Origin: a virus
UHGV virus genome: UHGV-1451962
Length of the DNA stretch: 64,000 nt
Direction: 5' to 3' (one strand)
Made by a program: the position numbers and the translations under genes. Positions within the stretch are counted from its first letter, which is position 1, and each line of letters starts with the position of its first letter. A model generated the notes under the pieces. That model was not told the origin of the DNA and did no database searches. It was given only the letters and a program-made list of their open reading frames with translations. Of the stretch, positions 1,090-18,782 are shown in pieces.

Positions 1090-1124
1090 GTTATGTAAGT
1101 AGAGTGGTGAAGTAAAATAATACT

Positions 1125-2286: not shown

Positions 2287-2511
2287 TACCTTAAATTTTT
2301 AAAAAGTCAAATGCGGACTTTGACTTGACAAATTAAAAAAAATTTTTTTCCGAGCGGGTGAGCCACTTTCGGGAAAAACCCCGGCCATATGAAGGGTCGC
2401 TAGAAGTCTAGAAAAATCGCCATATGCTAGTGGAAAGGGGATTTCGGGCTGTGACCACTGTCCACAGCCCGCCACTCCTTATATATAGTATACCATAAAA
2501 CCAGCCTTATG

Positions 2512-2712
2512 TCAATCGGCATTTTCACCAAAAGTAAATTTTATTTTATTACTAGGACACTTCACGCACAAATACACATCTCCATTTTCTTCTTTTTGAA
2601 TATAAAAAGTAAATAACTGGCCGGTTTCCATTCCTAGATAATCTCTTAACTTAGAAGGGATAACTAATCGACCAGTCGAGTCCAGCTTTCTGGCAAATTC
2701 AGTTTTCAACAT
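2512..2712 (-). CDS. small AbrB/SpoVT-like DNA-binding protein
   Basis: 'GRLVIPSKLRDYLGMETGQ' resembles the AbrB swapped-hairpin N-domain motif (GRVVIP..LR..LGI). Confidence 0.45.
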   Translation of the reverse strand: MLKTEFARKLDSTGRLVIPSKLRDYLGMETGQLFTFYIQKEENGDVYLCVKCPSNKIKFTFGENAD

Positions 2713-2995
2713 ATCCAGATATTTTTTTCTGATGACCTAGACGTGCGAAATTTCAACCCTAAAACGGGCCTTTCTATCTCTAAAATCTTTAAAGTAATTT
2801 ACCACTCACAAGGCATCTTAGAACAGAAATCACGCATAACACAAACTTCGCAATTATCCTACTTTAGGCAGTATTCAATAATCACCGCAAGTACCTTTAA
2901 TAATTCACAGGTCATTAGAAAAGCTCCTTTCCTTAATTTCTATATATATTATAACATAATTTTTTAGAAAAAACAAAAAAGAACTCTGAGTATTC

Positions 2996-3463
2996 TCAGA
3001 GTTCTTTAGTTTCTGTCACAAAGTATTTGGCATTGTAATCCACCAGAATTTTCTTAACTTGGCTACTCTCCATTTGTGTGGCACAATAAACATTAAAAAT
3101 TGAATATTTACCTACATTTTCAATATAATTATGCGGAATTGAGTTTAGTCTTTCGTGAAGTTGTTTTGTAAATTCACCGGGGACAGTCACCTCAATTCGC
3201 CACAATTTTTCTTTTCTTCCTTTTGCTTCCGCCCACTTAACCGCATACACGCCAACCAGATTACAGCCAAAGGTAACTAATACCTTCTGCCACAGAGGGA
3301 AATCCGCGACTGTGTAAATAAGAACTATATTATAATAACCATAGTACAGAGCAGAAATCATGCTTGCGGAAAATGGTGTACCATTAATAGTTACAATGCT
3401 TTTGATTGTCGAAAAAACCACATTGGCAATGGAGAGACCAATAAATAACAAGAGTAAAGACAA
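2996..3463 (-). CDS. hypothetical membrane protein
   Basis: 155 aa with several hydrophobic segments (LLLLFIGLSIANVVF..., ALYYGYYNIVLIYTV...). Confidence 0.45.
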   Translation of the reverse strand: MSLLLLFIGLSIANVVFSTIKSIVTINGTPFSASMISALYYGYYNIVLIYTVADFPLWQKVLVTFGCNLVGVYAVKWAEAKGRKEKLWRIEVTVPGEFTKQLHERLNSIPHNYIENVGKYSIFNVYCATQMESSQVKKILVDYNAKYFVTETKEL

Positions 3464-3652
3464 TTAAATACCCGCCTTTCTGCACATCACAAAGAACTCT
3501 TCCAGAGGAACCCAAGCCCCATCAATAGTAATCAATGGCCACCAATCTCCTTCACATTCTTTGTCATAGTCCATGAAGTAGTCATAGGCTTTCTGCAAAG
3601 AATCAAACTTCGCAAAATCGCCGTTGTAGCGGTCAGTAATTTTGATAATCAT
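3464..3652 (-). CDS. hypothetical protein
   Basis: 62-aa ORF abutting the neighbouring ORFs in the same orientation. Confidence 0.35.
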   Translation of the reverse strand: MIIKITDRYNGDFAKFDSLQKAYDYFMDYDKECEGDWWPLITIDGAWVPLEEFFVMCRKAGI

Positions 3653-4242
3653 TATTCTTCATCCTCCTTTTCCCAGCAAACAATATATTGTGAGTATTCA
3701 CCATTTGGTTTAAGAAATTGAACCTTATAGCCTGCTTCCTCAAGTATTTGAGTAATAATTTTTGTATCTTCTAGAAGATTAATAGTAGCAGCAAATTTTC
3801 CATCTTCTGCGGCACTTAGAAGATTAAACATAATTTGCCCAAGGGCTTCAGTGATTACTGTAGATCTTGCTTGTAGTGTTTTATCAAGCATCCCTTTAGC
3901 ATCCAACCAGTTCGTAGGTTTTCTAATTTCTATTTCTACCTTCCTTTCTCTATGGAAGAGGGCTTTTCGGCCCTCTTCTTCTTCCATAACTACACCAGCA
4001 AGAATTAAAGTGTTGCAGATGCACTGCCAAGCATAAAGACCCATATTTTGGGGAATGGCTTCCCAAATCTCAGGCCGCAACTTCTTCAGGCCAGTTAGAA
4101 GCATACCGCCCCAGTCGCCACCGCAAGCAACGCACTTGTCCAAAAACTGGCCAAAGGTAATGTTTAACGGCTCACAGCTATCAATAGCTTCAAGAACATC
4201 CTCACCCCAGTTCTTTGCGATGAAGTCTCTGCGTTCATTCAT
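3652..4242 (-). CDS. hypothetical protein
   Basis: 196-aa ORF; promoter/RBS cassette upstream at ~4250-4300. Confidence 0.5.
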   Translation of the reverse strand: MNERRDFIAKNWGEDVLEAIDSCEPLNITFGQFLDKCVACGGDWGGMLLTGLKKLRPEIWEAIPQNMGLYAWQCICNTLILAGVVMEEEEGRKALFHRERKVEIEIRKPTNWLDAKGMLDKTLQARSTVITEALGQIMFNLLSAAEDGKFAATINLLEDTKIITQILEEAGYKVQFLKPNGEYSQYIVCWEKEDEE

Positions 4243-4560
4243 ACTATCAACCTCTTTCCTTAATTTCTGTATTCATTATAGCATCTTTGCCCTGGTTTGT
4301 CAAGACCTTTTTTATTTTTTTTGAAATTTTTAAATCCCCTTTCCTTTTGTGATTATATAATAACATAATTTTGGGAAAATGTCAATAAGTAAAATTGTAC
4401 AAATCAAAAGCAGAAAAATTGTGGAAAATGTATATTGACACGAATTCGGGCCACATCCACCAAGCGCGGCCCGTCGAGTTTTGTTATTGCTTTACTTTTG
4501 CTTATAACAAGTATAGGGATAAAAAAAGGATAGTGGCTATTAACCACTATCCTTTAATAA

Positions 4561-4812
4561 TCAAACATCTTCAATTACGATATTTTCGCCGATCTCTGCT
4601 AAGTTTTGCAAAATATCTGACGCTTCTCCCACTTTTGCGGCATCAATGGTTTCGTATTTGCCAATATAACTATTAGCAGACATCACCTCCCAAATTTGAT
4701 TAAGAATGTCAGAGGCTTGCTCAAGACGATCAATTTCTTCTTGGGATAAGCGAACCTCGCATTGCTTTTCAATAACAATCATGTTCTCTTCCTCCTTATA
4801 GTTCGATCTCAT
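4561..4812 (-). CDS. hypothetical protein
   Basis: 83-aa acidic ORF. Confidence 0.4.
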   Translation of the reverse strand: MRSNYKEEENMIVIEKQCEVRLSQEEIDRLEQASDILNQIWEVMSANSYIGKYETIDAAKVGEASDILQNLAEIGENIVIEDV

Positions 4813-5140
4813 AGGTTTTGCGGATAGTAACCTTTACTTTCTTGGGTTTTTGTTTACAGCAAAATCTGTCATTGCGGACAAATTCGCCGATAGAAGATTC
4901 CTGCCATGCTGCACGATTCTTATCCTCATATCGCAAAGTCGAATACTTAGACAAAGGCAGATGCCAATCATAGACAAACTTAGCGGATTTCGGCATAGTA
5001 AACTTAGGTGAACGCTTATAATTTCTGGTATGCTCTTGCTGTCTCCGGGCTAAATCATTAGTAGTGCCTATTTTGAGAATGTAGTTGCCTTCTACATCAA
5101 AATAGTGACCTACATACAAATACTCTTTCTTTTGTTGCAT
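4796..5140 (-). CDS. hypothetical protein
   Basis: 114-aa ORF. Confidence 0.45.
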   Translation of the reverse strand: MQQKKEYLYVGHYFDVEGNYILKIGTTNDLARRQQEHTRNYKRSPKFTMPKSAKFVYDWHLPLSKYSTLRYEDKNRAAWQESSIGEFVRNDRFCCKQKPKKVKVTIRKTYEIEL

Positions 5141-5197
5141 TTACATCACCTTTTTCGTCAAAATTAGCTCTTTTTTAAGTGAAAAGGGCCAAAAACT

Positions 5198-5587
5198 TTA
5201 CTTTTTGGCCCTTTTCTGAACTAAAGTCAACTCAAAGGCGTTATTATCAACAGAAAAAGCAATCTGTCGCTCAGGATTTGCAATTTTTACATCACAAATC
5301 CCCAAAGATTCAAGAAAACCTGCAAGTTCCGCAATCAAATTTGCTTTAGTGGGGTTCTCTTTTCTTTCTCTTTTAATAGGGGTCTTGCGGTCATGCTTCT
5401 TAGTATGTTGCCCGGTAATAGTATACTTCTTTGCTACCTTTTGTTGTTCCTCGGTCAAATCCCATTCATGCGGGATGCCTTTATCAACCTCGCAGTCTGC
5501 CTTATAGATTTCTACTGCTTTTTCATAACTGCACTTGATGCCAGCTTGGATTCTTGCGATTGCTTCTTTTGCTTTGTCCAAAAACAT
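5198..5587 (-). CDS. hypothetical basic protein, paralog of 9346..9708
   Basis: shares spaced motifs with the 9346..9708 product (D.G...L.EEQ.KV.KK ... NPER.I ... F..TL). Confidence 0.5.
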   Translation of the reverse strand: MFLDKAKEAIARIQAGIKCSYEKAVEIYKADCEVDKGIPHEWDLTEEQQKVAKKYTITGQHTKKHDRKTPIKRERKENPTKANLIAELAGFLESLGICDVKIANPERQIAFSVDNNAFELTLVQKRAKK

Positions 5588-5611
5588 ACCTCCCCTCTAG
5601 GGAAGAGGGCC

Positions 5612-6034
5612 TTAGCCCTCTTCCTCTTCTACCACGGCCTGCGCCTTGTAGAAATGGGCAATACCCTTGTGGGTATCCTTGTAAGCAATACCCTCAGAGA
5701 CAAGAGCCTTGCACATAGGGGCGATACGCTGGGGAGTCAAATCTTCCAGTTCAGGAATGGCCTTGCGGAGCATTGCAATGGTCATACCATCTTCGGTCAA
5801 CTGCTCGGCAATCAGAGCCTTAAAATGCTCATTCTCAGTCTGGCGGGCAGTCTGCTTGCGGGAATTAGAACCCTTCTTAGCATCCAGCAGGCGAATTTCA
5901 TTGGAGAGGAAATCGGTCAGACCCTCAAAGTCAAAACCTTCGTCCTCACGGCCTTCGCACAGTTCCACCAGCTCAATCAGAGACTGGAAACGCTCACGCT
6001 TAGTAATTCTCTTGTTAGTATTTTCCATAAACAC
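5612..6034 (-). CDS. hypothetical protein, paralog of 9768..10124
   Basis: C-terminal region 'TARQTENEHFKALIAEQL...IPELEDLTPQRIAPMCKALVSEGIAYKDTHKGIAHFY' parallels 'TATQTENARLIEVIADTL...IPELNGFTPQKVGPMLKKLVETGRATRDTNKGKAYY'. Confidence 0.5.
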   Translation of the reverse strand: MFMENTNKRITKRERFQSLIELVELCEGREDEGFDFEGLTDFLSNEIRLLDAKKGSNSRKQTARQTENEHFKALIAEQLTEDGMTIAMLRKAIPELEDLTPQRIAPMCKALVSEGIAYKDTHKGIAHFYKAQAVVEEEEG

Positions 6035-6369
6035 CTATCTCGCTTTTGGTTTTTAAGAGTTTGTCCTTCTCTTGATTACATGCTTATTATAGCATGTTTC
6101 TTGGGGTTTGTCAAGAGGTTTCGCAAACTTTTCACAAGATTTACGGCTTCCAGAGCATGTTGGGCAATAACAATTACCACATGATATAAGACTTACCACT
6201 TGATGTATTTCGTTTACTTCCTATACTTTCTCACAGGTCGGCCGCCCTAGGATTTCTTGGGCTACTTCCTCCTGACATTATTTATTATATCAGATTTCAC
6301 CCAAATTGCAATAGGCAAATTGTACAAAAAGCGGGATTTTCCTCAAATAAATTTTGTGCAGTTTAACTC

Positions 6370-6398
6370 TTGACAAATTTTGTGCCGCGTGGTATAAT
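6370..6398 (+). promoter_or_regulatory. near-consensus promoter on the plus strand, opposite to the surrounding genes
   Basis: TTGACA 6370-6375, 17-nt spacer, TGgTATAAT with TATAAT at 6393-6398. Confidence 0.5.
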
Positions 6399-6404
6399 TG
6401 AAAT

Positions 6405-6513
6405 TTCGGCGCTCCACAGTCGTGGGCGCCGCGCCATTGTATCATAAAGCTGCGGTTTTGTCAATAGGCAAAATGTACAAAAAAATGAGGGAAAAATCCC
6501 TCATTTCCTTTTC
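6405..6513 (+). ncRNA. candidate small RNA / antisense transcript
   Basis: downstream of promoter 6370-6398: GC-rich hairpin 'cggcgctccacagtcgtgggcgccg', no credible ORF, then hairpin 'atgagggaaaaatccctcat' (6486-6505) followed by a T-rich stretch. Confidence 0.25.
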
Positions 6514-6777
6514 CACTTTGTCAAGATCAGCTTTCAGACTGTCAAGTTCCTGCTCTTTGTCCATAGTTTTTAATTCAAGCGCAGTCTCTAAATAACGTAA
6601 GTAATTCTGATAGTCATCGGTGCTATACTCAGAAAAAGTGAACCCTTTTCCTCTGAACTTATCTCTTACACGAGTGACACTTTTATGACATTGAACACGT
6701 TCTTCATACACAGCATAACTATCAGTTCCTTTCTTAATTTCTGTATTTATTATAGCGTCTTTGCTTTGAATCGTCAA
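6442..6777 (-). CDS. doubtful ORF (true product probably shorter)
   Basis: ORF runs through its own promoter/RBS cassette (6725-6795) and uses a TTG start; first in-frame ATG is far downstream. Confidence 0.2.
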   Translation of the reverse strand: MTIQSKDAIINTEIKKGTDSYAVYEERVQCHKSVTRVRDKFRGKGFTFSEYSTDDYQNYLRYLETALELKTMDKEQELDSLKADLDKVEKEMRDFSLIFLYILPIDKTAAL

Positions 6778-6805
6778 TAGACAAATTGCACAAAGTGGAA
6801 GATTT

Positions 6806-7339
6806 TTATAACTTCATTCCATTTGTTTGAAATGCTTTAGCTACTTTATCAAAGCAATCTTCCATTTTAAGAATTTCCTGCTTCTTACTTTCTATCTGAA
6901 AAAGAAGATTTACATAAACTTCCTGAAGGTATTCCCGATACCCACTAGCATTGAAGGCGAAAGTATCTCGATAACAAATAGTAATATCACTTCTATTATA
7001 GTGGATGCCTAATTCTTCCCCACCATTAGCCGCGATCAGAGCTTCCTTTGCCGCCACCAGCAGCTCTCTGTATTCCTTATACTTCATAAGAAGCTCGCCG
7101 GCACGGTTTGTTACATAAGGAGCAGTTTCTCTGCATCTAGGCCCATTTGTATCATAGACCGGTGCTTTACCAACCACTTTGATGATATTGTGGTTGAAGA
7201 GAGTTTCCGCCTTAGAGCGTCCCTTACCACGAGCCGCATCATATTTATCAGAGGTGAAGGGTTTATCCCCGAACAGTTTAACAACCTGAGCAGCACCTTC
7301 CAGAACGCTATTGCAATTTTTGATAGAGAACATAATCAT
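6806..7339 (-). CDS. hypothetical protein
   Basis: ORF track start at 7342 is TTG; ATG at 7339 sits 5 nt after the RBS (complement of 'cctttcct'); promoter at 7366-7394. Confidence 0.55.
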   Translation of the reverse strand: MIMFSIKNCNSVLEGAAQVVKLFGDKPFTSDKYDAARGKGRSKAETLFNHNIIKVVGKAPVYDTNGPRCRETAPYVTNRAGELLMKYKEYRELLVAAKEALIAANGGEELGIHYNRSDITICYRDTFAFNASGYREYLQEVYVNLLFQIESKKQEILKMEDCFDKVAKAFQTNGMKL

Positions 7340-7365
7340 CAATTCCTTTCCTGTTTTCTGTTGTT

Positions 7366-7394
7366 ATTATATCATGCTTTTGCTTACTTGTCAA
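7366..7394 (-). promoter_or_regulatory. sigma-A-type promoter with extended -10 (TTGACA-N17-TGaTATAAT)
   Basis: -35 is complement of 'tgtcaa' 7389-7394; -10 is complement of 'attata' 7366-7371; TG at 7373-7374. Confidence 0.6.
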
Positions 7395-7611
7395 GAGATT
7401 TTATCAAATTGCTTGTATCTGTTTCAGTAAGAATTTTTTCCATCTCTTTGACAGATAAGCTGTCTACTTTTCTCTGGAAATCTTTGAGGAGTAAATCATC
7501 CCCACAGATTTCTTCCTCAATATCTACCCACTCTTTGTAAACATGGAGTAGTAAATATTCATCAGGTTCCATCAAAGAACCGCAGACAATGTAGCCATCA
7601 TCCAAAAGCAA
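7384..7611 (-). CDS. hypothetical protein
   Basis: 75-aa ORF. Confidence 0.35.
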   Translation of the reverse strand: MLLDDGYIVCGSLMEPDEYLLLHVYKEWVDIEEEICGDDLLLKDFQRKVDSLSVKEMEKILTETDTSNLIKSLDK

Positions 7612-7986
7612 ACCAGCGTGGACAACCCCTTCAAGGTCGAGAAATAATACCTACTTTGTCATTTGCAAAACTCCCTTTTGTTTTATTTTATCAGAGCGGC
7701 GCCTACTCTGACAGCTTTCTTGTTGTTTATTACTTTGGAGCAATAGAAAAAGCTAAGAAAATCTCCGCATCACTATATGGTTTTTATTTCGTTCATGTAA
7801 AACAACAGTGCAAACAAAATTCTGTAATAATTGGGTTAGCATGGCGGCGGGTGCCTGGTAATATCTATCATTCGCTTTACTCCTTTTTATTTATTTATTT
7901 GCCACTAAAACACTTTATCACCTCCCTTGACTGTACCTGTATTATATCACAGAAGAAAAGCTTTGTCAAGCCTTTTTTGCAATTTT

Positions 7987-8385
7987 TTAATCCTTAATAA
8001 GTTCTTTGGGAATAGTCCAACCAACGGCTCGGCAATAAGCAATAACCATACCAACCGCGGGAATGAAAGTGTCATTTGTTGTGGCTGTTGCTTTTCCAGT
8101 CAGGCGATGATTATTGCTGATAACTTCGCAAACAGTAGTTCTGCCCTCAATACTGAACTTTGCAGAAGTGCCATATAACATATGAGCATTGTCCTCTAAC
8201 CACTTCTGAGCAATAGAAGCCTTGCTTTCTGCGGATTGAACATACTTACGGAGAATAATTCCATCCGAACTGGTGCAAATTTCCAGTGGGTCTCCCTCCT
8301 GAATGTGCATGTTGCGGCGGATCTCCTTGGGGATGACCACCCGGCCCAGGTCGTCGATGCGGCGCACGATACCAGTAGTTTTCAT
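7987..8385 (-). CDS. AbrB-family transition-state-regulator-like DNA-binding protein
   Basis: N-terminus 'MKTTGIVRRIDDLGRVVIPKEIRRNMHIQEGDPLEI...GIILRKY' closely matches the AbrB N-domain (MKSTGIVRKVDELGRVVIPIELRRTLGI...IILKKY). Confidence 0.75.
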   Translation of the reverse strand: MKTTGIVRRIDDLGRVVIPKEIRRNMHIQEGDPLEICTSSDGIILRKYVQSAESKASIAQKWLEDNAHMLYGTSAKFSIEGRTTVCEVISNNHRLTGKATATTNDTFIPAVGMVIAYCRAVGWTIPKELIKD

Positions 8386-8452
8386 ATTTTTTTACTTCCT
8401 TTCTTTTACTGTATTTGTATTATACCATACAGTCCGGTCTTTGTCAAGCCTT

Positions 8453-9097: not shown

Positions 9098-9123
9098 GTT
9101 ATCTCCTCCCTTACTGTGATTAT

Positions 9124-9152
9124 AGTATAACACGGCAGGTCTTATTTGTCTA
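9124..9152 (-). promoter_or_regulatory. promoter (TAGACA-N17-TGtTATACT)
   Basis: read on the minus strand from 9152 down to 9124. Confidence 0.4.
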
Positions 9153-9211
9153 TTGGCGAAATGCACAAATTCGGAATTTTTGTCTGCCTAGTTTTTATGC
9201 ACTTTTGCCCA

Positions 9212-9240
9212 TTGACAAAAGTCGGATTACCTGGTATAAT
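9212..9240 (+). promoter_or_regulatory. near-consensus promoter on the plus strand, opposite to the surrounding genes
   Basis: TTGACA 9212-9217, 17-nt spacer, TGgTATAAT with TATAAT at 9235-9240. Confidence 0.5.
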
Positions 9241-9246
9241 TGAAAT

Positions 9247-9351
9247 GCGGCAGCGCTTGACCATGCGCGGGCCGCCAAACATTTACCATTGAGAAGTATT
9301 GGGCAAAAAAGAAAACCGGCCTATAAAAATAAGCCGGTTTTGTTATTATTT
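9247..9351 (+). ncRNA. candidate small RNA
   Basis: GC-rich hairpin 'gcggcagcgcttgaccatgcgcgggccgcc', no ORF, ends at bidirectional terminator hairpin 9312-9341 (aaaaccggc/gccggtttt) plus T-run. Confidence 0.25.
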
Positions 9352-9708
9352 TCTAGGAGCGCTTAATGTAATTTTGAAACGTCTTTCATTAAAAACTATC
9401 TCAATTTCTCGCTCTGGGTTATTGATGGTAGTTTCAATTTCAAGTTGTTCAAGAGATTCCGCAATAATCTCAATCAAGCGATGTTTGTCATTGTCAACCT
9501 TGCGCTGTCGGGGAGCATTCATAGTATATTTGCCTTTCTCTTTGCCGGATAACCGCATTTTCTTTTCTACTTTCTTTTGTTCATCAGTAAGTGGGAAAAG
9601 GTCTGCACCTTTATCTATTGCTTCATCATCAGCAATAACTGCCAAAGCTTGTTTTCTATCAAGGTCTAACACCTTCTGAAGATGTTTAACCCTAGCTTCA
9701 TCTATCAT
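9346..9708 (-). CDS. hypothetical basic protein, paralog of 5198..5587
   Basis: 120-aa ORF; see paralog motifs. Confidence 0.5.
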   Translation of the reverse strand: MIDEARVKHLQKVLDLDRKQALAVIADDEAIDKGADLFPLTDEQKKVEKKMRLSGKEKGKYTMNAPRQRKVDNDKHRLIEIIAESLEQLEIETTINNPEREIEIVFNERRFKITLSAPRK

Positions 9709-9732
9709 TAAACACCATCCTTTTTGAGAAAA

Positions 9733-9757
9733 TAAAGAGGGGCATTAAGCCCCTCTT
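9733..9757 (-). terminator. intergenic hairpin between 9768..10124 and 9346..9708
   Basis: stem aaagaggggc/gcccctcttt with 5-nt loop. Confidence 0.4.
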
Positions 9758-9767
9758 TATTTAATTA

Positions 9768-10124
9768 TTACACCATAGTGTAGTATGCCTTGCCCTTGTT
9801 GGTGTCACGAGTGGCTCGGCCAGTTTCAACCAGCTTCTTGAGCATGGGGCCAACCTTCTGAGGGGTAAAACCGTTCAGCTCAGGAATGGTCTTGGTAATG
9901 TCGGAAATGGTGAAAGCTTCGCCCTTGGGCAGAGTGTCAGCAATCACTTCAATCAGACGTGCGTTCTCAGTCTGAGTTGCAGTAGGCTTACCGCTACCAC
10001 GGCTCTTATTCTCCTGCTGATGAAGCAGAATCTCAATCTTGGCACGAACATCGGCAGGAATCTCGCAGTTGTCCAGAACATACTGAAGAGCGCCCTTGTT
10101 AGTAATCTTCTTCTCGTTAGTCAT
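9768..10124 (-). CDS. hypothetical protein, paralog of 5612..6034
   Basis: 118-aa ORF; see paralog motifs. Confidence 0.5.
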   Translation of the reverse strand: MTNEKKITNKGALQYVLDNCEIPADVRAKIEILLHQQENKSRGSGKPTATQTENARLIEVIADTLPKGEAFTISDITKTIPELNGFTPQKVGPMLKKLVETGRATRDTNKGKAYYTMV

Positions 10125-10233
10125 AATATCAATTCCTTTCTGTGCGGTAGGTCGCTACCCTAATTGTTAAGGAAGTGGGGAGGGTTTTCTCTCCCTCACT
10201 TCTCTTATATTATATCATTTTCCTTTTGTTTTG

Positions 10234-10941
10234 TCAAGCGGTTTTTTGATTTTCAAAAAGTTTTTTCCGCATTTTCTTCTTTTGCCGATAGCAGTAAATC
10301 ATAATCTCCCGCTCAATCCGCACATCGTCAAGACCTTTATGTTCTTCCTGAAAAGTGGGGTCTTTGATGATGAATCTATACAGATTTTCTGCTGTTGCTG
10401 AGAGTTTACCAGTTTTGGTTAAGAAACCGTGTTGTTCACAGAACCTTTTATAGGTAGGCATCTTTAGAATAACATCTCTTGCCATTTTGAGAGTATCCCA
10501 AATATCGGTACCATAGGGGAACCAATACCGATATTTACTCTTAGTAGTCCAGCGTTGAAGTAAATTCAATGCGTTCAGGTCGAATCTTGCATTGTGGGCG
10601 ACTACCTCTGTAATACCATATTCTGCCATGTCTGCAAGCATAGCTTGTCGAATCTGGTAAGTGTTAGCTATTTGTCGGATGCCCTGTCGAATATCTTCCA
10701 GATACTGGGGAATCTTTTCCGCATAATAGGCGGATTTCATAAGCTCACTTTCATCAAAGAAAATATCTCGATTAACAAAGGATTGTTCCTTGTAGATATT
10801 CCCTCTTGTATCCATAACACACCACCCGCAATCATAGACAAGAACTGAGGTCATGTCTAATCGGCCTTTTTGGTCAGTGATGGTGTTCGCTGTCTCAGTG
10901 TCCAGAAGCAGAACGTAATGTCTGCGCTTGTCAATGCTCAT
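10234..10941 (-). CDS. DnaQ-like (DEDDh) 3'-5' exonuclease
   Basis: Exo I motif 'LLLDTETAN' and Exo III motif 'VVAHNARFDLNAL'. Confidence 0.65.
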   Translation of the reverse strand: MSIDKRRHYVLLLDTETANTITDQKGRLDMTSVLVYDCGWCVMDTRGNIYKEQSFVNRDIFFDESELMKSAYYAEKIPQYLEDIRQGIRQIANTYQIRQAMLADMAEYGITEVVAHNARFDLNALNLLQRWTTKSKYRYWFPYGTDIWDTLKMARDVILKMPTYKRFCEQHGFLTKTGKLSATAENLYRFIIKDPTFQEEHKGLDDVRIEREIMIYCYRQKKKMRKKLFENQKTA

Positions 10942-10974
10942 GTTGCATCTACCTCTTCCTTAATTTCTGTACTT

Positions 10975-11003
10975 ATTATATCAGATTTTTTCTCATTTGT
11001 CAA
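10975..11003 (-). promoter_or_regulatory. sigma-A-type promoter with extended -10 (TTGACA-N17-TGaTATAAT)
   Basis: -35 is complement of 'tgtcaa' 10998-11003; -10 is complement of 'attata' 10975-10980; RBS complement of 'cctcttcc' 10953-10960. Confidence 0.6.
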
Positions 11004-11022
11004 GAACTTTTTGGCTCCCTGC

Positions 11023-11478
11023 TTAAAGCAGGGAAGCCAAGAAATCAATGATGTCACAAGTTTCAGGATTGACAGTTTCTCCCAAATGCCAACTGTCACG
11101 AACTTTCTTATTATCATCAATAAGAATTGCCTTAGATGCTTTTCTACGAACAGCATCCGCTTTAGTGGCTCCATACTTTAGACCATGAAAGTGGTCATAG
11201 GGGAAACCCCATTTCAAGAGCCAAGCCTTTTTAGCTTCTCGCACAGCCTTTGCATACTCAGGGCTGCTTTCTTTAGAAAGCCAAGTGATGATTGCAATCT
11301 CCCAACCAGCCTGTTTTAACTTGTTAATAAGCTCGTTAAGCTTATCCACGTCCCACATGGGTTTAGCTTCCAGGTAAGGGCTTGTATCTTCCTTCCGCAG
11401 CTTAGACAGCCAACCATTAACCCCATACAGGTCAGCAATAGTGCCGTCCATATCAAAAGCCAACATTTTGTCAGTCAT
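11023..11478 (-). CDS. HAD-superfamily phosphatase / nucleotidase-like protein
   Basis: HAD motif I 'FDMDGTIAD' near the N-terminus; start taken at the MTDK ATG (an in-frame TTG at ~11487 is also possible); ORF track start 11586 runs through the promoter. Confidence 0.55.
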   Translation of the reverse strand: MTDKMLAFDMDGTIADLYGVNGWLSKLRKEDTSPYLEAKPMWDVDKLNELINKLKQAGWEIAIITWLSKESSPEYAKAVREAKKAWLLKWGFPYDHFHGLKYGATKADAVRRKASKAILIDDNKKVRDSWHLGETVNPETCDIIDFLASLL

Positions 11479-11536
11479 AAGTGTCAACTTCTTTCCTTTA
11501 TTTCTATGGTAATTATACCACGGTAAGGCCCAAATG

Positions 11537-11722
11537 TCAAGCCTTAATTTCTTCAATGTCAAGAAGAATTTCACCAGTAGAATCATCTACCAAGTAATAC
11601 ATTGTAGTAGCATACTGAGCTAACCTATGAAAGAAATCCTCTGCCAATGAAAAGGAATCAAAAGGCCCGATAATTTCTTCATCGCCAACATGATAGATAG
11701 AATAAGTCTGCTTCATATGCAA
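11537..11722 (-). CDS. hypothetical protein
   Basis: 61-aa ORF. Confidence 0.3.
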   Translation of the reverse strand: MHMKQTYSIYHVGDEEIIGPFDSFSLAEDFFHRLAQYATTMYYLVDDSTGEILLDIEEIKA

Positions 11723-11731
11723 TACCTCCTA

Positions 11732-11889
11732 TCAAAAGATATGAATGAGAGTTTCATTCCCATTCTCTTCCAGATGACACTCATAGACAGAGCCTTTCTT
11801 GCGGGTTGCGTTCCGCATTGCGATACCCTTGTTATCAAAGTGTATCTGCCAACCATTGGGGAAAACTACCAGCCAGTCACGGTATTCGG
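11732..11889 (-). CDS. hypothetical small protein
   Basis: RBS (complement of 'ggcctccttttg') precedes 'MTEYRDW...'; the longer ORF-track version (to 12124) crosses promoter sequence. Confidence 0.35.
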
Positions 11890-12049
11890 TCATACTTTTG
11901 GCCTCCTTTTGTTTTCTGTAATTATTATAACAAAAATTTTTAAGAAATTCAATAATCAATTTTGATGATGTTTTGTCGCTATACTTTTTATAAACAAATG
12001 CCATTTCGGGATGAATACTTCCGGGTAAAATCACCAAACTTTCCTCTAA

Positions 12050-12115
12050 ATTTTTGTGCAATTTGCGCATTGACAGAATTTCGGCGCACACTGGGAGGTC
12101 ATGGTCGTGTGCGCG
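12050..12115 (+). other. third copy of the GC-rich hairpin element (cf. 6405-6440, 9247-9280)
   Basis: 'gaatttcggcgcacac...gtgtgcgcgccgccgc' shares the 'aatttcggcgc...gcgcc' core with the 6400 element. Confidence 0.3.
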
Positions 12116-12185
12116 CCGCCGCAATTATTATACCATACTTTTGCTTTGTTGTCAATAGATAAATTGAACAAAAAATTTTTATTTA

Positions 12186-12203
12186 TTTTTTTTTTTTTTT
12201 TTT
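12186..12203. repeat. 18-nt homopolymer T tract
   Basis: uninterrupted run of 18 T on the plus strand. Confidence 0.9.
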
Positions 12204-12250
12204 ACTGCTAGAAGCCTAGAAGTTTCATCATATAAGCATATAGCAAAAAT

Positions 12251-12273
12251 AAAAAGGGCCGCAAGGCCCTTTT
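12251..12273. terminator. bidirectional rho-independent terminator
   Basis: 'aaaaagggccgcaaggcccttttt': GC stem gggcc/ggccc, loop gcaa, flanked by A-run and T-run. Confidence 0.6.
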
Positions 12274-12570
12274 CACTTCCAAGTTTTTTCAAGTGGATTT
12301 TTGTTTATTTTACCGGAACCTTAATGGCCCACAAGCTTTCTAAACAGTCAAGCCCTATGTAAGACTCGCTCGCTTTTTCAAAAAGCTTTTTCTCCACTTC
12401 CTCCAAAGTCATGCAGAGATATTCTTCAAAGAAGTCAGGAGAAGCGTCTTTCTGTATCCTCGCAATCATCTCTTTTATTGTTGTTGCTTTGTCATAGGCT
12501 CATTACCATACTGGTCAGAAACTATAATGACGTAAGCATCTTTCTTTATAATAATCAACTCCTTTTCTTT

Positions 12571-12903
12571 TTACCACATGTCAACGTAGTGCTGTTTGTC
12601 ATTGGGATACTTGTGCTTAACAAGCGTGGCACATTCCTCATCATCGGTCGCAAGTCTGAGTTTGCTATCCACCAGAGCCACCAGCTCAGGAGCAGCTTCC
12701 TTGTAAAGAACTTCCAGCAGTTCTTTCAGAGCGCCTTTACCATAATAGCGGTAGTCCTCAGCAGTAATCTTCCAGACCATGATTTTCTCAGGGTCATAAC
12801 CGCAGTTGGGATAGTAGAGAGTCAAGTCTCCATCGTGAAGCACATAAGCGCTTTCATAGTAGGTTGCGGTGTACTGACTGTCGAATAGTTCCTTGTTAGT
12901 CAT
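12571..12903 (-). CDS. hypothetical protein
   Basis: 110-aa ORF with promoter/RBS cassette upstream. Confidence 0.55.
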   Translation of the reverse strand: MTNKELFDSQYTATYYESAYVLHDGDLTLYYPNCGYDPEKIMVWKITAEDYRYYGKGALKELLEVLYKEAAPELVALVDSKLRLATDDEECATLVKHKYPNDKQHYVDMW

Positions 12904-12934
12904 CTTTTGTTTCCCCTTTTTTTATCTTGATTAT

Positions 12935-12963
12935 ATAATACCATAATTTTGAGAAAACGTCAA
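12935..12963 (-). promoter_or_regulatory. promoter (TTGACG-N17-TATTAT)
   Basis: almost identical to the promoter upstream of 3652..4242 ('ttttcYcaaaattatgKtattatataatca'). Confidence 0.5.
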
Positions 12964-13054
12964 TAAGTAAAAATGCACAAATTAAGAATAAAAATTTGTA
13001 CAATACAAACAAAAGAAAAAGGAAGGCCGCAAAACCTTCCTTTTTCACTGCTGT

Positions 13055-13420
13055 TTAGAACAAATCTTGAAGCTGTTGAATAGCTTCATCAATATTGCAC
13101 CAGTTACCAGTGTGTTCATTGAGCACCAAGAGGGCTTCTTCTCCCGGAGTAAGAGAAGGAATTTTACAGTTGAAGCTAATGAAATAGCGCTTGAGCAATT
13201 CAACGGCTTCTTTATTACCATCGCACAAGATAGCAATAATAGGTGCAGGATTAGCTTTAAGGTTGAGCTTGACTTCGCCGAGCTTATCATACAGCTTGAA
13301 GCTATCCTCGCAACGCTTCGCCATTTCTTCCATCTCATGCAAGTTGCAGCTGTCATAGTCCTCAAAAACCTCACCGCAATACTCACAGAAGTAGACTGTC
13401 TTTTTCAACATAAAAATCAT
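13055..13420 (-). CDS. hypothetical Cys-containing (zinc-binding-like) protein
   Basis: 'CEYCGEVFEDYDSCNLHE' near the N-terminus. Confidence 0.45.
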   Translation of the reverse strand: MIFMLKKTVYFCEYCGEVFEDYDSCNLHEMEEMAKRCEDSFKLYDKLGEVKLNLKANPAPIIAILCDGNKEAVELLKRYFISFNCKIPSLTPGEEALLVLNEHTGNWCNIDEAIQQLQDLF

Positions 13421-13477
13421 CCTTTCTTTTATTATGGTCTTATTATACCACAGACTAAGCTTCTTGTCAAGACTTTT

Positions 13478-13650
13478 TTACAAACATTCAACCACTTCCC
13501 AAATCTGCTGATACTCTTCATAAGAGTTGGCGAAATCATTCTTACTGGCTTCATCGCGGCCCTCTTCTTTAATCCATTCCTTCCACTTGTCAAGGATCGC
13601 CTTGTTAGCTTTGTCCATCTTAACACCAATGATCTTCTTGATGTTCTTCA
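13478..13650 (-). CDS. hypothetical small protein
   Basis: RBS (complement of 'cccctttcctttt') precedes ATG of 'MKNIKKIIG...'; ORF track start 13726 overlaps the promoter. Confidence 0.4.
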
Positions 13651-13893
13651 TTTGTTTTATCCCCTTTCCTTTTGTAATTATATAATAACACACTTGCCGC
13701 AATAGGTCAATAGGCATACTGCACAATTCGGGATCCCAATTCTCTCTCTAAATTTAGCTATTTTGACTATTGATTTTGAGCAGACTTTGTGGTATACTGA
13801 TTCGGAAAGTTGCCTTGTAAAACGAAGACATTCGTTTATAACAAGTATGTTAAACAAAAGGAAAGAGATAAGCTAAGCTTACCTCTTCTCCTA

Positions 13894-14109
13894 TCATACT
13901 ACTTCATACTCATCATACTTCTTAGCCAAGACTAATACTTCCTGATATATCTTCTTTGGTATAATGTAAGCCCTCCAACGCAGGTCGCCATTAGGTTTGA
14001 AAGAAGTCTTTCTCCAACCAAAGAAGCATCTCCATAGAAAGCTTTTGCCCTCACAATACATTTCAATAAAATCTATCATACATTCATTGTCTATCCAGTA
14101 TTTTTTCAT
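13894..14109 (-). CDS. hypothetical protein
   Basis: 71-aa ORF. Confidence 0.35.
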   Translation of the reverse strand: MKKYWIDNECMIDFIEMYCEGKSFLWRCFFGWRKTSFKPNGDLRWRAYIIPKKIYQEVLVLAKKYDEYEVV

Positions 14110-14309
14110 ACTTCTCCAACCTCTCTTTTATTTTTAACCTTACAAAGTTCAATCTTGATTGCCTGACCATCAGGAAAGACTAAGCACTTGCGCAAACCAG
14201 AAGGAAAGCGAAACCATTGAACTTTAGCCCACTGCCAACTTTCTCCCTGGTAGTTGTTTCGCCATGTCTTAACAGGTGAGCAAGCATAGAACTCAAAAGT
14301 CTTTTTCAT
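14106..14309 (-). CDS. hypothetical protein
   Basis: 67-aa ORF overlapping the next gene start by 4 nt (coupled arrangement). Confidence 0.35.
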   Translation of the reverse strand: MKKTFEFYACSPVKTWRNNYQGESWQWAKVQWFRFPSGLRKCLVFPDGQAIKIELCKVKNKREVGEV

Positions 14310-14415
14310 TTGATCTTTCCTCCTTTTACTATCTATAGTATACCATACCTTAACCAGAATGTCAATACCTTTTTCATTTATTTATTTATAAAATAAAAAA
14401 GAAAAATGGTTCTGC

Positions 14416-14763
14416 TCATTTAAGAGCAGAACCATTCCAGAAGCCAAGAATCATGTCATCATAGACAAAACCTGGTGTAGCATTGTCATCAATAGCAATG
14501 AGAACGTCCTCACCTTTCACAAGGCCATCATCATCAATGGCGTACAGGTTGCCATCACGCATGTCTTTCAATGTCACACATCCATCATCATGAGTTGCAG
14601 TAACAGTAGCGCGAACCAGACGAACAGTATTCATACCATAGTGGATGCTGTTTGTTGCACAGTATCTGGCATTTTCAGCAGGAGTGCTAAGAGCGCAAGC
14701 AGAAGTAGTGAGAGCAGAGATAACGATTGCCAGAACAGCGATGATAGAGAAGAACTTTTTCAT
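14416..14763 (-). CDS. secreted protein / possible lipoprotein
   Basis: N-terminal signal peptide 'MKKFFSIIAVLAIVISALTTSACA' with a lipobox-like L-T-T-S-A-C. Confidence 0.5.
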   Translation of the reverse strand: MKKFFSIIAVLAIVISALTTSACALSTPAENARYCATNSIHYGMNTVRLVRATVTATHDDGCVTLKDMRDGNLYAIDDDGLVKGEDVLIAIDDNATPGFVYDDMILGFWNGSALK

Positions 14764-15104
14764 AGGTCATTGACCCCTTTCCTTAATTTCTGTATTTATT
14801 ATACCATCAAGACAGCCTTTTGTCTATTGACACATTGAACAAAAGAAAAAGAAATTAAAAGTTCTTCTTTGTGCATTTTGCTGAAGAATAATTTTGTTTA
14901 ATTCGCCTATTGACAAGACCATTTTTCTTTTGATTAATGAATAGTTGTTTACAGAAGATACTGTTTGATGGGGCCTTTGTGGGGTTAATGGATATTTACC
15001 AATGAAAGATAGTTTAATGGTTTGGCGTACTCCGGGGTAGTTTTCGGGAAAAAAATTATATTTGTTATTAAAAACCATTTGGCCTGGACACTTCTCTCTC
15101 TAAG

Positions 15105-18697: not shown

Positions 18698-18782
18698 AAA
18701 TAATTACTTTTAATAAAACTCGCCAAAGGCGAGTTTTATTAAAAATTTTTTTTCATTTTTAATTAATATATCTAAAAATTTT

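What the first reader, a model, noticed from the sequence alone, without database searches (positions are those of the whole stretch)
2700..14850. Array of 20+ small early genes, each with its own near-consensus promoter and RBS cassette
Almost every minus-strand gene between ~0.3 and 14.8 kb is preceded by the same module, read on the minus strand as TTGACA, a 17-nt spacer, often an extended -10 (TGnTATAAT), then AAGGAAAGG a few nt before the start. Verified examples: 881-909, 7366-7394, 9124-9152, 10975-11003, 12935-12963. Two promoters (upstream of 3652..4242 and 12571..12903) are nearly identical over ~30 nt. Because of these cassettes the ORF track over-extends several gene starts. Independent strong promoters on each small gene suggest a shufflable early/accessory gene array.
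Basis: seen in the sequence. Interest (0 to 1): 0.5.

Follow-up and report, generated by a model that had tools for sequence, protein, structure and literature searches.

The report
Shufflable early-gene promoter cassette array
A 12-kb stretch of this roughly 137-kb gut phage holds about 30 small genes of unknown function, driven by some 22 near-perfect host-type promoter and ribosome-site cassettes; related strains gain and lose genes exactly at these cassettes, an arrangement already known in principle from phages T4 and SPO1 but not described for this very common gut phage lineage.

Summary
On the minus strand of 1-15000 there are 17 sites matching TTGACA-N17-TATAAT at 11/12 or better, against 0.12 expected; 15 of them carry the extended -10 TG. 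Only 2 such sites lie on that strand in the other 49 kb. "One promoter per gene" is overstated. About 22 promoters serve about 30 genes in one- to four-gene units, and six promoters have no ORF behind them.

The promoters show purifying selection across strains: 0.3-0.6% substitutions in the hexamers against 7.1% in the spacer. The architecture is shared by a large phage lineage, including cultured Enterococcus phage EF1.

Among strains 90-96% identical to the window, whole units are missing. The junctions lie inside two promoter cassettes and overlap by 28-55 bp. That fits homologous recombination between cassettes, as with T4 PeSLs, so "shufflable" is supported.

Early timing is inferred, not shown.

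Three further features emerged:
- Array genes are a compositional island (GC3 0.42, against 0.15 in late genes).
- A polar GC-hairpin element with covarying stem pairs occurs two to five times per array, always antisense. It often has its own promoter, facing a sense promoter, and predicts antisense RNAs of about 100 nt.
- There are signs of TAG-to-Gln recoding.

Verdict: a new variant of a known kind, of moderate interest.

The parts
14798..14826 (-). Promoter cassette P14826 (TAGACA-17-TGgTATAAT) with the AATACAGAAATTAAGGAAAGG leader; drives gene 14416-14763
14416..14763 (-). Gene, 115 aa, N-terminal signal/lipoprotein-like peptide; no Pfam or PHROG hit
14403..14438 (-). Intrinsic terminator-like hairpin plus T-run
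14337..14365 (-). Promoter P14365 (11/12 plus TG); drives the two-gene unit 14106-14309 and 13894-14109
13894..14309 (-). Two overlapping small genes (67 aa and 71 aa). The 71-aa gene is replaced by a 76-aa allele in sister strains
13862..13888 (-). Terminator-like hairpin
13682..13710 (-). Promoter P13710 (class with upstream TTGTGCA motif; 10/12 plus TG); drives gene 13478-13651 (57 aa)
13442..13470 (-). Promoter P13470 (12/12 plus TG); drives gene 13055-13411 (118 aa). This unit is absent in L105 and L106, with the junction in the -10/leader
13015..13046 (-). Terminator-like hairpin (bidirectional)
12935..12963 (-). Promoter P12963 (10/12 plus TG; 80% identical over 81 nt to the P4385 cassette); drives gene 12571-12903 (110 aa), followed by the frameshifted remnants 12305-12554
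12246..12273 (-). Terminator-like hairpin (GGGCC-TTGC-GGCCC plus T-run), read by eye
12127..12155 (-). Promoter P12155 (12/12 plus TG, upstream TTGTTCA motif). It is followed by the hairpin element, not by an RBS and ORF
12075..12131 (+). Copy of the polar GC-hairpin element (model R1, 23.9 bits). It has a sense promoter only; the antisense promoter is decayed
11924..11952 (-). Promoter P11952 (10/12 plus TG); drives genes 11732-11893 (53 aa) and 11537-11716 (59 aa)
11512..11540 (-). Promoter P11540 (12/12 plus TG), lying inside the end of the upstream gene; drives the HAD-like gene 11023-11478 (151 aa)
10975..11003 (-). Promoter P11003 (12/12 plus TG); drives gene 10234-10941 (235 aa; phrog_20187, weak similarity to an exonuclease)
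10209..10237 (-). Promoter P10237 (12/12 plus TG) with an 85-nt structured leader; drives 9768-10124 (118 aa) and 9346-9708 (120 aa). This pair is a diverged duplicate of the pair 5612-6028 and 5198-5587
   Evidence: family D13
9312..9341 (.). Bidirectional terminator: ends gene 9346-9708 and the predicted antisense RNA
9212..9240 (+). Antisense promoter (12/12 plus TG), back to back with P9152
9241..9345 (+). Predicted antisense RNA of about 100 nt: hairpin element 9241-9287 (R1, 30.6 bits) plus terminator. The region at about 9204-9285 flanks a 1.5-1.9 kb insertion in strains L112, L113 and L117
9124..9152 (-). Promoter P9152 (10/12 plus TG); drives gene 8453-9097 (214 aa)
8419..8447 (-). 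Promoter P8447 (12/12 plus TG); drives the AbrB/MazE-fold gene 7987-8385 (132 aa). This unit is absent in L113, with a promoter-to-promoter junction
7941..7969 (-). Promoter P7969 (12/12 plus TG) with an RBS followed by GTG TTT TAG: an empty cassette
7384..7662 (-). Gene with an in-frame TAG at codon 4 (92 aa if read through); the codon is CAG in sister strains
7366..7394 (-). Promoter P7394 (12/12 plus TG); drives gene 6806-7339 (177 aa). This unit is absent in L112, L113 and L117, with a 55-bp junction overlap
6749..6777 (-). Promoter P6777 (11/12); drives an apparently frameshifted gene (ATG at 6716 gives 16 aa; the long frame 6442-6711 follows)
6479..6510 (.). Bidirectional terminator: ends the upstream sense unit and the predicted antisense RNA
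6436..6464 (-). Promoter P6464 (11/12 plus TG), face to face with the antisense promoter at 6370-6398
6370..6398 (+). Antisense promoter (12/12 plus TG)
6400..6512 (+). Predicted antisense RNA of about 108 nt: hairpin element 6400-6446 (R1, 38.2 bits) plus terminator; fold z-score -6.3
6284..6311 (-). Promoter-like site (TTGCAA-16-TGaTATAAT, 10/12) with no clear ORF behind it
6086..6114 (-). Promoter P6114 (12/12 plus TG); drives the four-gene unit 5612-6028, 5198-5587, 4796-5140 (T5orf172 domain) and 4561-4782
4525..4555 (-). Terminator-like hairpin at the end of the four-gene unit
4357..4385 (-). Promoter P4385 (11/12 plus TG) with the RBS AAAAGGAAAGGGGA but no ORF: an empty cassette lying directly upstream of P4303
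4275..4303 (-). Promoter P4303 (12/12 plus TG); drives 3652-4242 (196 aa), 3464-3652 (62 aa) and 2996-3463 (155 aa, membrane-like)
2978..3007 (.). Bidirectional terminator-like hairpin
2800..2975 (-). Cassette with an extended -10 (TGTTATAAT) and the AAATTAAGGAAAGGAG leader, plus a 38-codon Cys-rich gene 2800-2915 with an in-frame TAG (CAG in sister strains)
2512..2712 (-). Gene, 66 aa, AbrB/MraZ-like fold
2487..2515 (-). Promoter P2515 (11/12 plus TG), followed by a copy of the hairpin element
2438..2484 (+). Weakest window copy of the hairpin element (R1, 19.8 bits, E 0.008)
881..909 (-). Outlying cassette P909 (11/12) driving gene 295-843 (182 aa). The plus-strand gene 1496-2128 separates it from the main array
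18669..18812 (.). Divergent promoter pair (P18697 on minus, 12/12 plus TG; P18783 on plus, 11/12). It marks the boundary between the leftward block and the rightward block, which starts with the conserved 348-aa protein

Best explanation
Window 2.4-14.9 kb, probably continuing past the left end, is the hyperplastic early/accessory region of a roughly 137-kb tailed phage of gut Bacillota.

It is built from autonomous units. Each unit has an A-rich or TTGTGCA-bearing upstream stretch, a near-consensus housekeeping-sigma promoter (TTGACA, 17 nt, TGnTATAAT), a conserved leader of about 30 nt ending in a strong Shine-Dalgarno site, one to four small genes, and often an intrinsic terminator.

[quoted passage not shown] Their products act on the host or its defences.

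Shown by comparison: because the cassette of about 60-80 bp is repeated some twenty times in direct orientation, homologous recombination between cassettes deletes, inserts and swaps whole units. Each incoming gene then arrives already wired for expression. This explains strain-to-strain gene flux, empty cassettes, tandem promoters and gene remnants. It also explains why the array genes are compositionally foreign to the backbone: they come from a gene pool shared among related phages.

A second conserved component is a polar GC-hairpin element. It is often transcribed from its own antisense promoter, facing a sense promoter. It probably yields antisense RNAs of about 100 nt and/or blocks its facing promoter. 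Its function is not established.
For: Promoters are real and under selection:
- Enrichment is 17 sites against 0.12 expected, and 15 of the 17 carry the extended -10 TG.
- In orthologous copies from strains, substitutions are 1/324 in the -35 hexamer and 2/324 in the -10, against 54/756 in the spacer and 4-4.5% in the flanks.

The architecture is a lineage trait:
- Nearly every one of the 53 loci with a full 10 kb upstream of the conserved 348-aa gene carries 4-21 such sites on the array strand.
- The 10 kb downstream of that gene holds almost none beyond two conserved sites at the gene itself.
- Cultured Enterococcus phage EF1 also has such an array.

Recombination at cassettes:
- Four unit-sized indels in sister strains have 28-55 bp junction overlaps at equivalent positions of two promoters.
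- In L052 versus L055, a 567-bp indel is bounded by two promoters, and L052 has an extra tandem promoter.
- Family-wide, 53-57% of block ends fall at cassettes, against 20-21% at random.

Traces of gene flux in the window: empty cassettes P4385 and P7969, frameshifted remnants, and a duplicated two-gene module.

Foreign composition: GC3 is 0.42 in array genes, 0.15 in late genes and 0.20 in the proximal leftward genes. Array GC is at or above that of the downstream 10 kb in all 53 related loci, by 0.00-0.12.

Timing: in TAG-recoded relatives the array strand has 2.6 in-frame TAG per 1000 codons, against 10.0 in the rightward genes. This fits translation of the array genes before a suppressor is available.

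Hairpin element:
- 7 of 8 stem pairs show compensatory changes; 0 of 500 shuffles reach the observed score.
- Model R1 gives 50 hits, all inside arrays and all antisense to the array genes.
- The predicted RNAs end in bidirectional terminators, with fold z-scores of -6.3 and -3.2.
Against: - No transcript data exist. Promoter activity, early timing and the antisense RNAs are all sequence inferences.
- Block ends at cassettes are partly expected simply because cassettes are conserved, so alignments run into them. In addition, the breakpoints counted are not independent events.
- Several swaps occur at gene boundaries rather than at promoters: 13872-14104 and 12260-12552.
- No function is known for almost any array protein. 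'Host takeover' is therefore an analogy.
Confidence: 0.75

Rival explanations
1. The units are 'morons' in the sense used for lambdoid phages. That is, they are autonomous promoter-gene-terminator insertions of foreign composition, expressed from a prophage to benefit the lysogen, rather than early lytic genes.
For: - Each unit has its own promoter and often its own terminator.
- Array genes differ sharply in composition from the backbone: GC3 0.42 against 0.15.
- AbrB/MazE-like 'antitoxin' folds are present.
Against: - There are thirty genes in one co-oriented block beside the genome's divergent control region, not scattered single insertions.
- All 66 genome-collection hits are MAG contigs. 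The long ones run to 175 kb, about the size of a whole phage, and none is from an isolate genome.
- The same architecture occurs in Enterococcus phages isolated as plaque formers.
- TAG depletion separates the array from the late genes in recoded relatives. This fits an early lytic class.
- I did not look systematically for integrase or repressor genes outside the window.
Confidence: 0.08
2. Cassette similarity reflects only convergent selection for maximal expression: a consensus promoter, a good leader and a good RBS. Gene turnover happens by illegitimate recombination or whole-segment exchange, and the cassettes are not themselves the recombination substrate.
For: - Cassettes within the window are only 61-92% identical over 36-81 nt, which is short and imperfect for homologous recombination.
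- Some replacements have boundaries at gene ends rather than promoters.
- Alignments would end in conserved cassettes in any case.
Against: - Four independent unit-sized indels have junctions where 28-55 bp align to both flanking cassettes at equivalent positions.
- The same holds for a fifth case in another sublineage.
- Tandem extra promoters and empty cassettes are the expected by-products of unequal exchange between cassettes.
- Recombination between short regulatory cassettes of this kind has been shown experimentally in T4-type phages (PMC2839356).
Confidence: 0.12
3. The dense consensus promoters act mainly as a sink that titrates host RNA polymerase away from host genes. The small ORFs are secondary.
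For: Six strong promoters have no ORF behind them. Tandem promoters occur 80-130 bp apart.
Against: - Most promoters are followed at a fixed 27-38 nt by a strong RBS and an ORF whose reading frame is kept intact among strains.
- ORF-less promoters are explained by cassette recombination or by the hairpin RNA element.
- About 22 sites per genome copy is a small sink.
Confidence: 0.03
4. The matches are chance products of an AT-rich genome.
For: The genome is 30% G+C. At the lax 9/12 threshold the shuffles already give about 50 matches in 16.5 kb.
Against: - At >=11/12 there are 17 sites against 0.12 expected.
- The sites are strand-specific and confined to the array, which is the least AT-rich part of the window.
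- TG is co-enriched.
- The hexamers are more than tenfold better conserved than the spacer.
Confidence: 0.01

Closest known systems
PeSL (promoter-early stem-loop) cassettes in the hyperplastic regions of T4-type phages (Arbiol et al. 2010, PMC2839356; Comeau et al. 2014, PMC4122927)
   Same: - Repeated cassettes with an AT-rich upstream region, a sigma-70 consensus promoter, a Shine-Dalgarno site and a start codon, placed in front of small ORFans.
- Clustered in variable regions.
- Insertions, deletions and replacements between close relatives have end points in the cassettes.
   Different: - The host type is Gram-positive and the phage lineage is unrelated: its late genes hit the SPbeta-type YonB, YonD and YonG families.
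- The stem-loop is not embedded in the promoter motif; terminators are separate hairpins upstream.
- The leader is conserved in sequence.
- There is an additional polar hairpin/antisense-promoter element.
- The array is a strong GC3 island.
- Mini-circles are not tested.
[quoted passage not shown] 1998, as described in PMC6873191)
   Same: - About 26 small genes in about 12 kb.
- Grouped in short operons with promoters and ribosome-binding sites typical of highly expressed early genes.
- The host is a Firmicute, and the early genes depend on the host's sigma-A.
   Different: - No detectable homology of the products (Pfam and PHROG searches).
- Location in a terminal redundancy is not known here.
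- To my knowledge, cassette-mediated shuffling, antisense hairpin RNAs and a composition shift have not been described for SPO1.
- A phage sigma factor is not confirmed here.
Morons of lambdoid phages (concept of Hendrix and co-workers; cited from memory)
   Same: Autonomous promoter-gene-terminator units whose base composition differs from that of their surroundings.
   Different: - Here there are thirty units in tandem, forming what looks like the early region of a large phage.
- There is no evidence of expression from a prophage.
Face-to-face promoter switches of P2 and 186 type phages, and convergent-promoter antisense control such as prgQ/prgX of pCF10 (cited from memory)
   Same: Two strong promoters face each other, with start sites a few tens of bp apart, so the transcripts overlap at their 5' ends. 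Window examples: 6464(-) versus 6370(+), and similar pairs in many relatives.
   Different: - Neither transcript encodes a repressor.
- The element occurs 2-5 times per array.
- Between the promoters it carries a conserved GC hairpin plus a GGAAATTTCC-like flank.
phAss-1 / 'Phassvirus' group of TAG-recoded gut phages (PMC10607447)
   Same: - Distantly related backbone: the 434-aa protein of 19787-21091 matches at 33% identity.
- The wider group named in that paper also includes Enterococcus phage EF1.
- TAG-to-Gln recoding is common in relatives of the window.
   Different: - That paper does not mention promoters or early genes.
- The 41-kb phAss-1 stretch I examined has one such promoter and no array.
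- phAss-1 gave no tblastn hit to the 348-aa protein.

Membership tests
PeSL cassette system (T4-type phages) | Repeated motif with a sigma-70 consensus -35/-10, an AT-rich upstream region, then a Shine-Dalgarno site and a start codon | tested here: met
   Many cassettes have an A-rich stretch such as AAAAAGGC directly before TTGACA.
PeSL cassette system (T4-type phages) | A stable stem-loop forms part of the motif: within, overlapping or directly adjoining the promoter boxes | tested here: not met
   In most units the hairpins lie 20-60 nt upstream, as separate terminators. A hairpin directly follows the -10 only in the 4-6 hairpin-element promoters.
PeSL cassette system (T4-type phages) | Concentrated in variable regions, in front of ORFans | tested here: met
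PeSL cassette system (T4-type phages) | Indels and replacements between close relatives have end points in the cassettes | tested here: met
PeSL cassette system (T4-type phages) | Recombination between nearby cassettes produces small circular DNAs | not testable with these tools
   Needs reads or PCR from a lysate.
SPO1-type host-takeover module | A cluster of roughly two dozen small genes in short operons with strong early (host sigma-A) promoters and strong ribosome-binding sites | tested here: met
   Met at sequence level only.
SPO1-type host-takeover module | Products homologous to SPO1 gp37-gp60 | tested here: not met
   No Pfam or PHROG family links them. I made no direct comparison with SPO1 sequences.
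SPO1-type host-takeover module | Located in the terminal redundancy, expressed early, and shuts off host functions | not testable with these tools
   Genome ends and expression are unknown. TAG depletion in recoded relatives is indirect support for early expression.
Moron | A single gene flanked by its own promoter and terminator, with atypical base composition | tested here: met
Moron | Carried by a temperate phage and expressed from the prophage | not tested
   I ran no search for integrase or repressor genes. Genome-collection hits are MAG contigs only.
Integron-like gene cassette array | Promoterless cassettes, each ending in an attC site, with an adjacent integrase and a common promoter | tested here: not met
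   Cassettes carry their own promoters. The hairpin element occurs only 2-5 times per array. No integrase turned up among the neighbouring genes scanned against Pfam or PHROGs.
Phage-encoded sigma factor (for the 348-aa protein 18847-19893) | Recognisable sigma-70 regions 2 and 4, or a sigma fold | tested here: inconclusive
   - PHROG 5767, labelled 'sigma factor', matches at E 1e-40, and GenBank annotators of the VRE9 phages use that name.
- There is no Pfam hit and no PDB sequence or profile hit.
Known RNA families (for the hairpin element and the antisense RNAs) | A match to an Rfam covariance model | tested here: not met
   No match at gathering scores. Only chance-level matches at E <= 5.

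The most novel reading that the evidence does not exclude
The most novel reading is that the polar GC-hairpin element is a new phage regulatory RNA/DNA module. The element comprises a conserved GGAAATTTCC-like flank, an 8-10 bp stem with covarying pairs and a semi-conserved loop. It is always antisense to the array, and it often sits between face-to-face consensus promoters.

On this reading it organises the array in two ways. First, it produces stable antisense RNAs of about 100 nt and switches or insulates blocks of early genes by promoter interference. Second, it acts as a preferred exchange point for multi-gene segments, as at window position 9204.

Together with the cassette promoters this would make the array a self-wiring, integron-like gene-capture platform. 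It would be shared by a very abundant gut phage lineage whose accessory genes come from a common pool kept in the standard genetic code.
Probability: 0.2. Interest if true: 0.7.

Novelty: new variant of a known kind. Interest (0 to 1): 0.45.

Why it matters
The conserved 348-aa marker of this lineage has more than 6,600 homologues in metagenome protein sets, and it appears in hundreds of large gut phage contigs. Its accessory genes are almost all of unknown function.

If the array is an early host-takeover or anti-defence region, it is a large, naturally indexed library of small proteins. Each gene marks itself by a recognisable promoter and leader cassette, so the library can be mined by a simple pattern search. 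Gene gain and loss can then be followed at strain level.

It would also extend cassette-mediated modular shuffling, so far shown for T4-type phages of Gram-negative bacteria, to an unrelated lineage of Gram-positive gut phages.

Cultured Enterococcus relatives (EF1, H1, VRE9) carry a similar array. The promoter, timing and antisense-RNA predictions can therefore be tested directly.

Tried and rejected
- Megablast of the array against 50,697 deposited phages found only a 100-bp match.
- Rfam found nothing at gathering scores and only noise at E <= 5. There are no tRNA genes in the window.
- Pfam and PHROGs gave no hit for most array proteins.
- Relatives fetched through the 226-aa protein of 15855-16535 are distant (30-42% identity) and have no array near that gene. 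The 41-kb phAss-1 stretch has none either.
- The genome-collection scan gave only MAG contigs binned to many taxa, mostly Clostridia, Bacilli and Erysipelotrichaceae. The host is therefore only 'gut Bacillota, probably'.
- I considered the hairpin element as a solitary CRISPR-repeat mimic (an RNA anti-CRISPR). I set that aside without a formal test. The four window copies have four different stems and loops of 9-17 nt, and they lack a repeat-like 3' handle at the usual distance.
- I considered the element as a lambda nut- or HK022 put-like antitermination site, or as a 5' stabiliser hairpin. Neither is excluded.
- I looked for a shared promoter motif in late intergenic regions and saw nothing obvious by eye.

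Full report
**What is there**

The window is one arm of a large tailed phage. From about 18.7 kb leftwards, genes run on the minus strand. From 18.8 kb rightwards lies a long plus-strand block of portal and other virion genes. The two blocks start at a divergent promoter pair at 18669-18812.

The window is the same strain (99.98-100% identity) as a 137,488-bp ENA scaffold. Its late proteins hit the SPbeta-type Pfam families YonB, YonD_N and YonG_N. The nearest deposited phages are the Enterococcus phages EF1, EF5, H1 and VRE9_1-4, at 38-40% protein identity, followed more distantly by phAss-1.

**The observation**

With a fixed 17-nt spacer, the minus strand of 1-15000 has 17 sites matching TTGACA/TATAAT at 11 of 12 or better, ten of them perfect. 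Simulations that keep dinucleotide composition give a mean of 0.12. The remaining 49 kb has two such sites on that strand. Fifteen of the 17 also carry TG at -15/-14, which the scan did not ask for.

The sequence after the -10 is conserved as well, as AATACAGAAATTAAGGAAAGAGG and variants. In 14 of 16 coding units the start codon lies 27-38 nt after the -10. The repeat finder recovers the cassettes independently as families of 36-81 nt.

By hand curation, the array from 2.4 to 14.9 kb holds:
- about 22 promoters;
- about 30 genes in units of one to four genes;
- at least 11 terminator-like hairpins;
- six promoters with no ORF behind them. Two of these are complete cassettes with an RBS and no gene (P4385, P7969).

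It also holds two frameshifted gene remnants and a diverged duplication of a two-gene module. "Each gene has its own promoter" is therefore too strong.

**Are the promoters functional?**

Nothing here measures transcription, but there is a selection test. I compared 20 window promoters with their non-identical orthologues in strain-level relatives:

| Region | Substitutions | Rate |
|---|---|---|
| -35 hexamer | 1/324 | 0.3% |
| -10 hexamer | 2/324 | 0.6% |
| Spacer between them | 54/756 | 7.1% |
| Upstream flank | 85/2135 | 4.0% |
| RBS-region leader | 70/1549 | 4.5% |

Choosing consensus-like sites in the window biases this test against the result, not towards it.

**A lineage trait**

An exact search for 25 bases of -10 plus leader found 11 viral contigs with the same dense arrays.

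The conserved 348-aa protein that opens the rightward block (18847-19893) has homologues at 62-72% identity in at least 157 IMG/VR contigs, and more than 6,600 homologues in metagenome protein sets.

In nearly every one of the 53 loci with a full 10 kb upstream of that gene, there are 4-21 sites at 11/12 or better on the array strand. The 10 kb downstream holds almost none beyond two conserved sites at the gene itself. Enterococcus phage EF1 has about 20 cassettes in the equivalent place. The paper describing the phAss-1 group does not mention promoters or early genes.

**Shuffling**

Contigs whose 348-aa protein is identical to the window's, or that share its 120-aa array protein, are 90-96% identical in DNA but differ in array gene content. 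The junctions in window coordinates are as follows.

| Segment absent | Size | Content | Strains lacking it | Junction overlap | Position in the flanking promoters |
|---|---|---|---|---|---|
| 7331-6766 | 564 bp | gene 6806-7339 | L112, L113, L117 | 55 bp | +63 of P7394 / +11 of P6777 |
| 8408-7976 | 431 bp | AbrB-like gene | L113 | 47 bp | +39 of P8447 / -7 of P7969 |
| 13660-12943 | 716 bp | two genes | L113 | 31 bp | +50 of P13710 / +20 of P12963 |
| about 12943-13421 | about 480-510 bp | gene 13055-13411 | L105, L106 | 28 bp (L105) | -10/leader of both promoters |

At 9204, in the hairpin-element region, sister strains carry 1.5-1.9 kb with six extra small genes, or replace 2.8 kb of the window by 2.0 kb of other genes.

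In another sublineage, L052 and L055 (97% identical) differ by a 567-bp promoter-to-promoter unit and by an extra tandem promoter.

Over 45 distinct arrays, 53% of left block ends and 57% of right block ends fall in the cassette, against 20-21% for random positions.

Three caveats apply. These ends are not independent events. Alignments tend to run into conserved cassettes anyway. Some swaps have boundaries at gene ends rather than promoters. The overlapping junctions are nevertheless what homologous exchange between direct repeats leaves behind. This is the mechanism shown experimentally for the PeSL cassettes of T4-type phages (PMC2839356; PMC4122927).

**Composition**

The array is 39% G+C in a 30% genome.

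| Gene set | GC3 |
|---|---|
| Array genes | 0.42 |
| Late genes | 0.15 |
| Conserved leftward genes next to the control region | 0.20 |

In all 53 related loci the array is at least as GC-rich as the 10 kb downstream, by 0.00-0.12. In EF1 it is not GC-richer.

I read this as a gene pool that circulates among related phages of different backbone composition. Selection for host-like codon use in genes translated before any phage tRNAs are made is an alternative. I could not separate the two readings.

**Timing**

Many relatives have 1-12 in-frame TAG codons in the 348-aa gene, so they are TAG-recoded like phAss-1 (PMC10607447). In those relatives, long frames of the rightward block carry 10.0 TAG per 1000 codons. 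Long frames on the array strand carry 2.6.

Stop-codon recoding is reported to mark mainly late genes (statement in PMC10607447). This is therefore indirect support that the array is read early, under the standard code.

**The hairpin element**

Two perfect promoters lie on the plus strand, antisense to the array: 6370-6398 and 9212-9240. Each is followed by TGAAAT, a GC-rich hairpin and, about 100 nt on, the bidirectional terminator of the upstream sense gene. The predicted RNAs fold with z-scores of -6.3 and -3.2.

The first faces the sense promoter P6464, with only about 37 bp between the two -10 boxes.

The same arrangement recurs through the family. Of 84 distinct antisense promoters in arrays, 52 are followed by a stretch of 70% G+C or more.

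In an alignment of 32 copies, an 8-bp stem shows compensatory changes at 7 of 8 pairs. No shuffle out of 500 reaches the observed covariation score, and slid controls score far lower.

A covariance model built from the alignment finds 50 copies in 20 sources. All lie inside arrays, and all are antisense to the array genes. This includes two window copies that have only a sense promoter: 12075-12131 and 2438-2484.

No Rfam family matches. Function is unknown. Candidates are promoter interference or insulation, a stable antisense RNA, a 5' stabiliser for the transcripts, or a protein-binding site (the flank GGAAATTTCC is palindromic).

**Comparison and verdict**

In logic, the array matches the T4-type PeSL regions and the SPO1 host-takeover module (PMC6873191). 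Each unit also fits the definition of a moron.

It is not a member of the PeSL family in the strict sense, because the stem-loop is not part of the promoter motif and the phage lineage is unrelated. Its proteins show no link to SPO1's.

I file it as a new variant of a known kind. The principle is known. The lineage, the conserved leader, the composition island and the polar hairpin/antisense module are new.

Noticed in passing
window 60051-63998: A diversity-generating retroelement. Its parts are a reverse transcriptase gene at 60051-61307(-) (Pfam RVT_1), a 108-nt non-coding template repeat at 61586-61693, and a variable copy at 62384-62491 in the 3' end of gene 62370-63998(-). Of 22 mismatches between the two copies, 21 are adenines in the template copy.
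   Followed up: partly
window 2800-2915 and 7384-7662; whole window: Signs of TAG-to-Gln recoding. None of 64 confident genes ends in TAG (49 end in TAA, 15 in TGA). The only two in-frame TAGs seen lie in small array genes, and both are CAG (Gln) in sister strains. Many relatives have 1-12 in-frame TAGs in the conserved 348-aa gene. The alternative is two ordinary nonsense mutations. There is no tRNA gene in the window.
   Followed up: partly
window 21088-24971: A gene that is one 579-581 aa ORF in strains L104, L105 and L107 is split here into 21088-21720 and 23961-24971. The split is made by two inserts, each carrying a homing-endonuclease ORF: HNH/NUMOD at 21998-22717 and GIY-YIG at 22860-23669. 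Both inserts have GC-richer non-coding flanks and are probably group I introns. Rfam found none at gathering score.
   Followed up: partly
window 1115-1413: An 84-nt inverted repeat, 95% complementary (arms 1115-1198 and 1330-1413, 131 nt apart). It lies in the non-coding stretch between the outlying cassette gene 295-843 and the plus-strand gene 1496-2128.
   Followed up: no
window promoters 14826, 13710, 12963, 12155, 9152, 6777, 6464, 6311, 4385 (minus strand) and 6370, 9212 (plus strand): A subset of promoters carries a conserved upstream motif, TTTGTRCA-N9-CTA, directly before the -35. The others have an A-rich AAAAAGGC-type upstream stretch. The motif marks all hairpin-element promoters and may be a regulator binding site. 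Two AbrB-fold proteins are encoded in the array.
   Followed up: partly
window 17728-18300 and 17142-17714: The conserved leftward genes next to the control region include a ClpP-family protease and a cell-wall hydrolase (Hydrolase_2). Both are kept in all strain-level relatives.
   Followed up: no
L118 (Enterococcus phage EF1, MF001358.1) 9800-16600: This cultured phage has about 20 promoter cassettes on the strand leading away from its copy of the 348-aa gene. It also has two antisense promoters followed by GC hairpins (locus 11035 and 12987). All the genes involved are annotated as hypothetical. It offers an experimental model for the whole architecture.
   Followed up: partly
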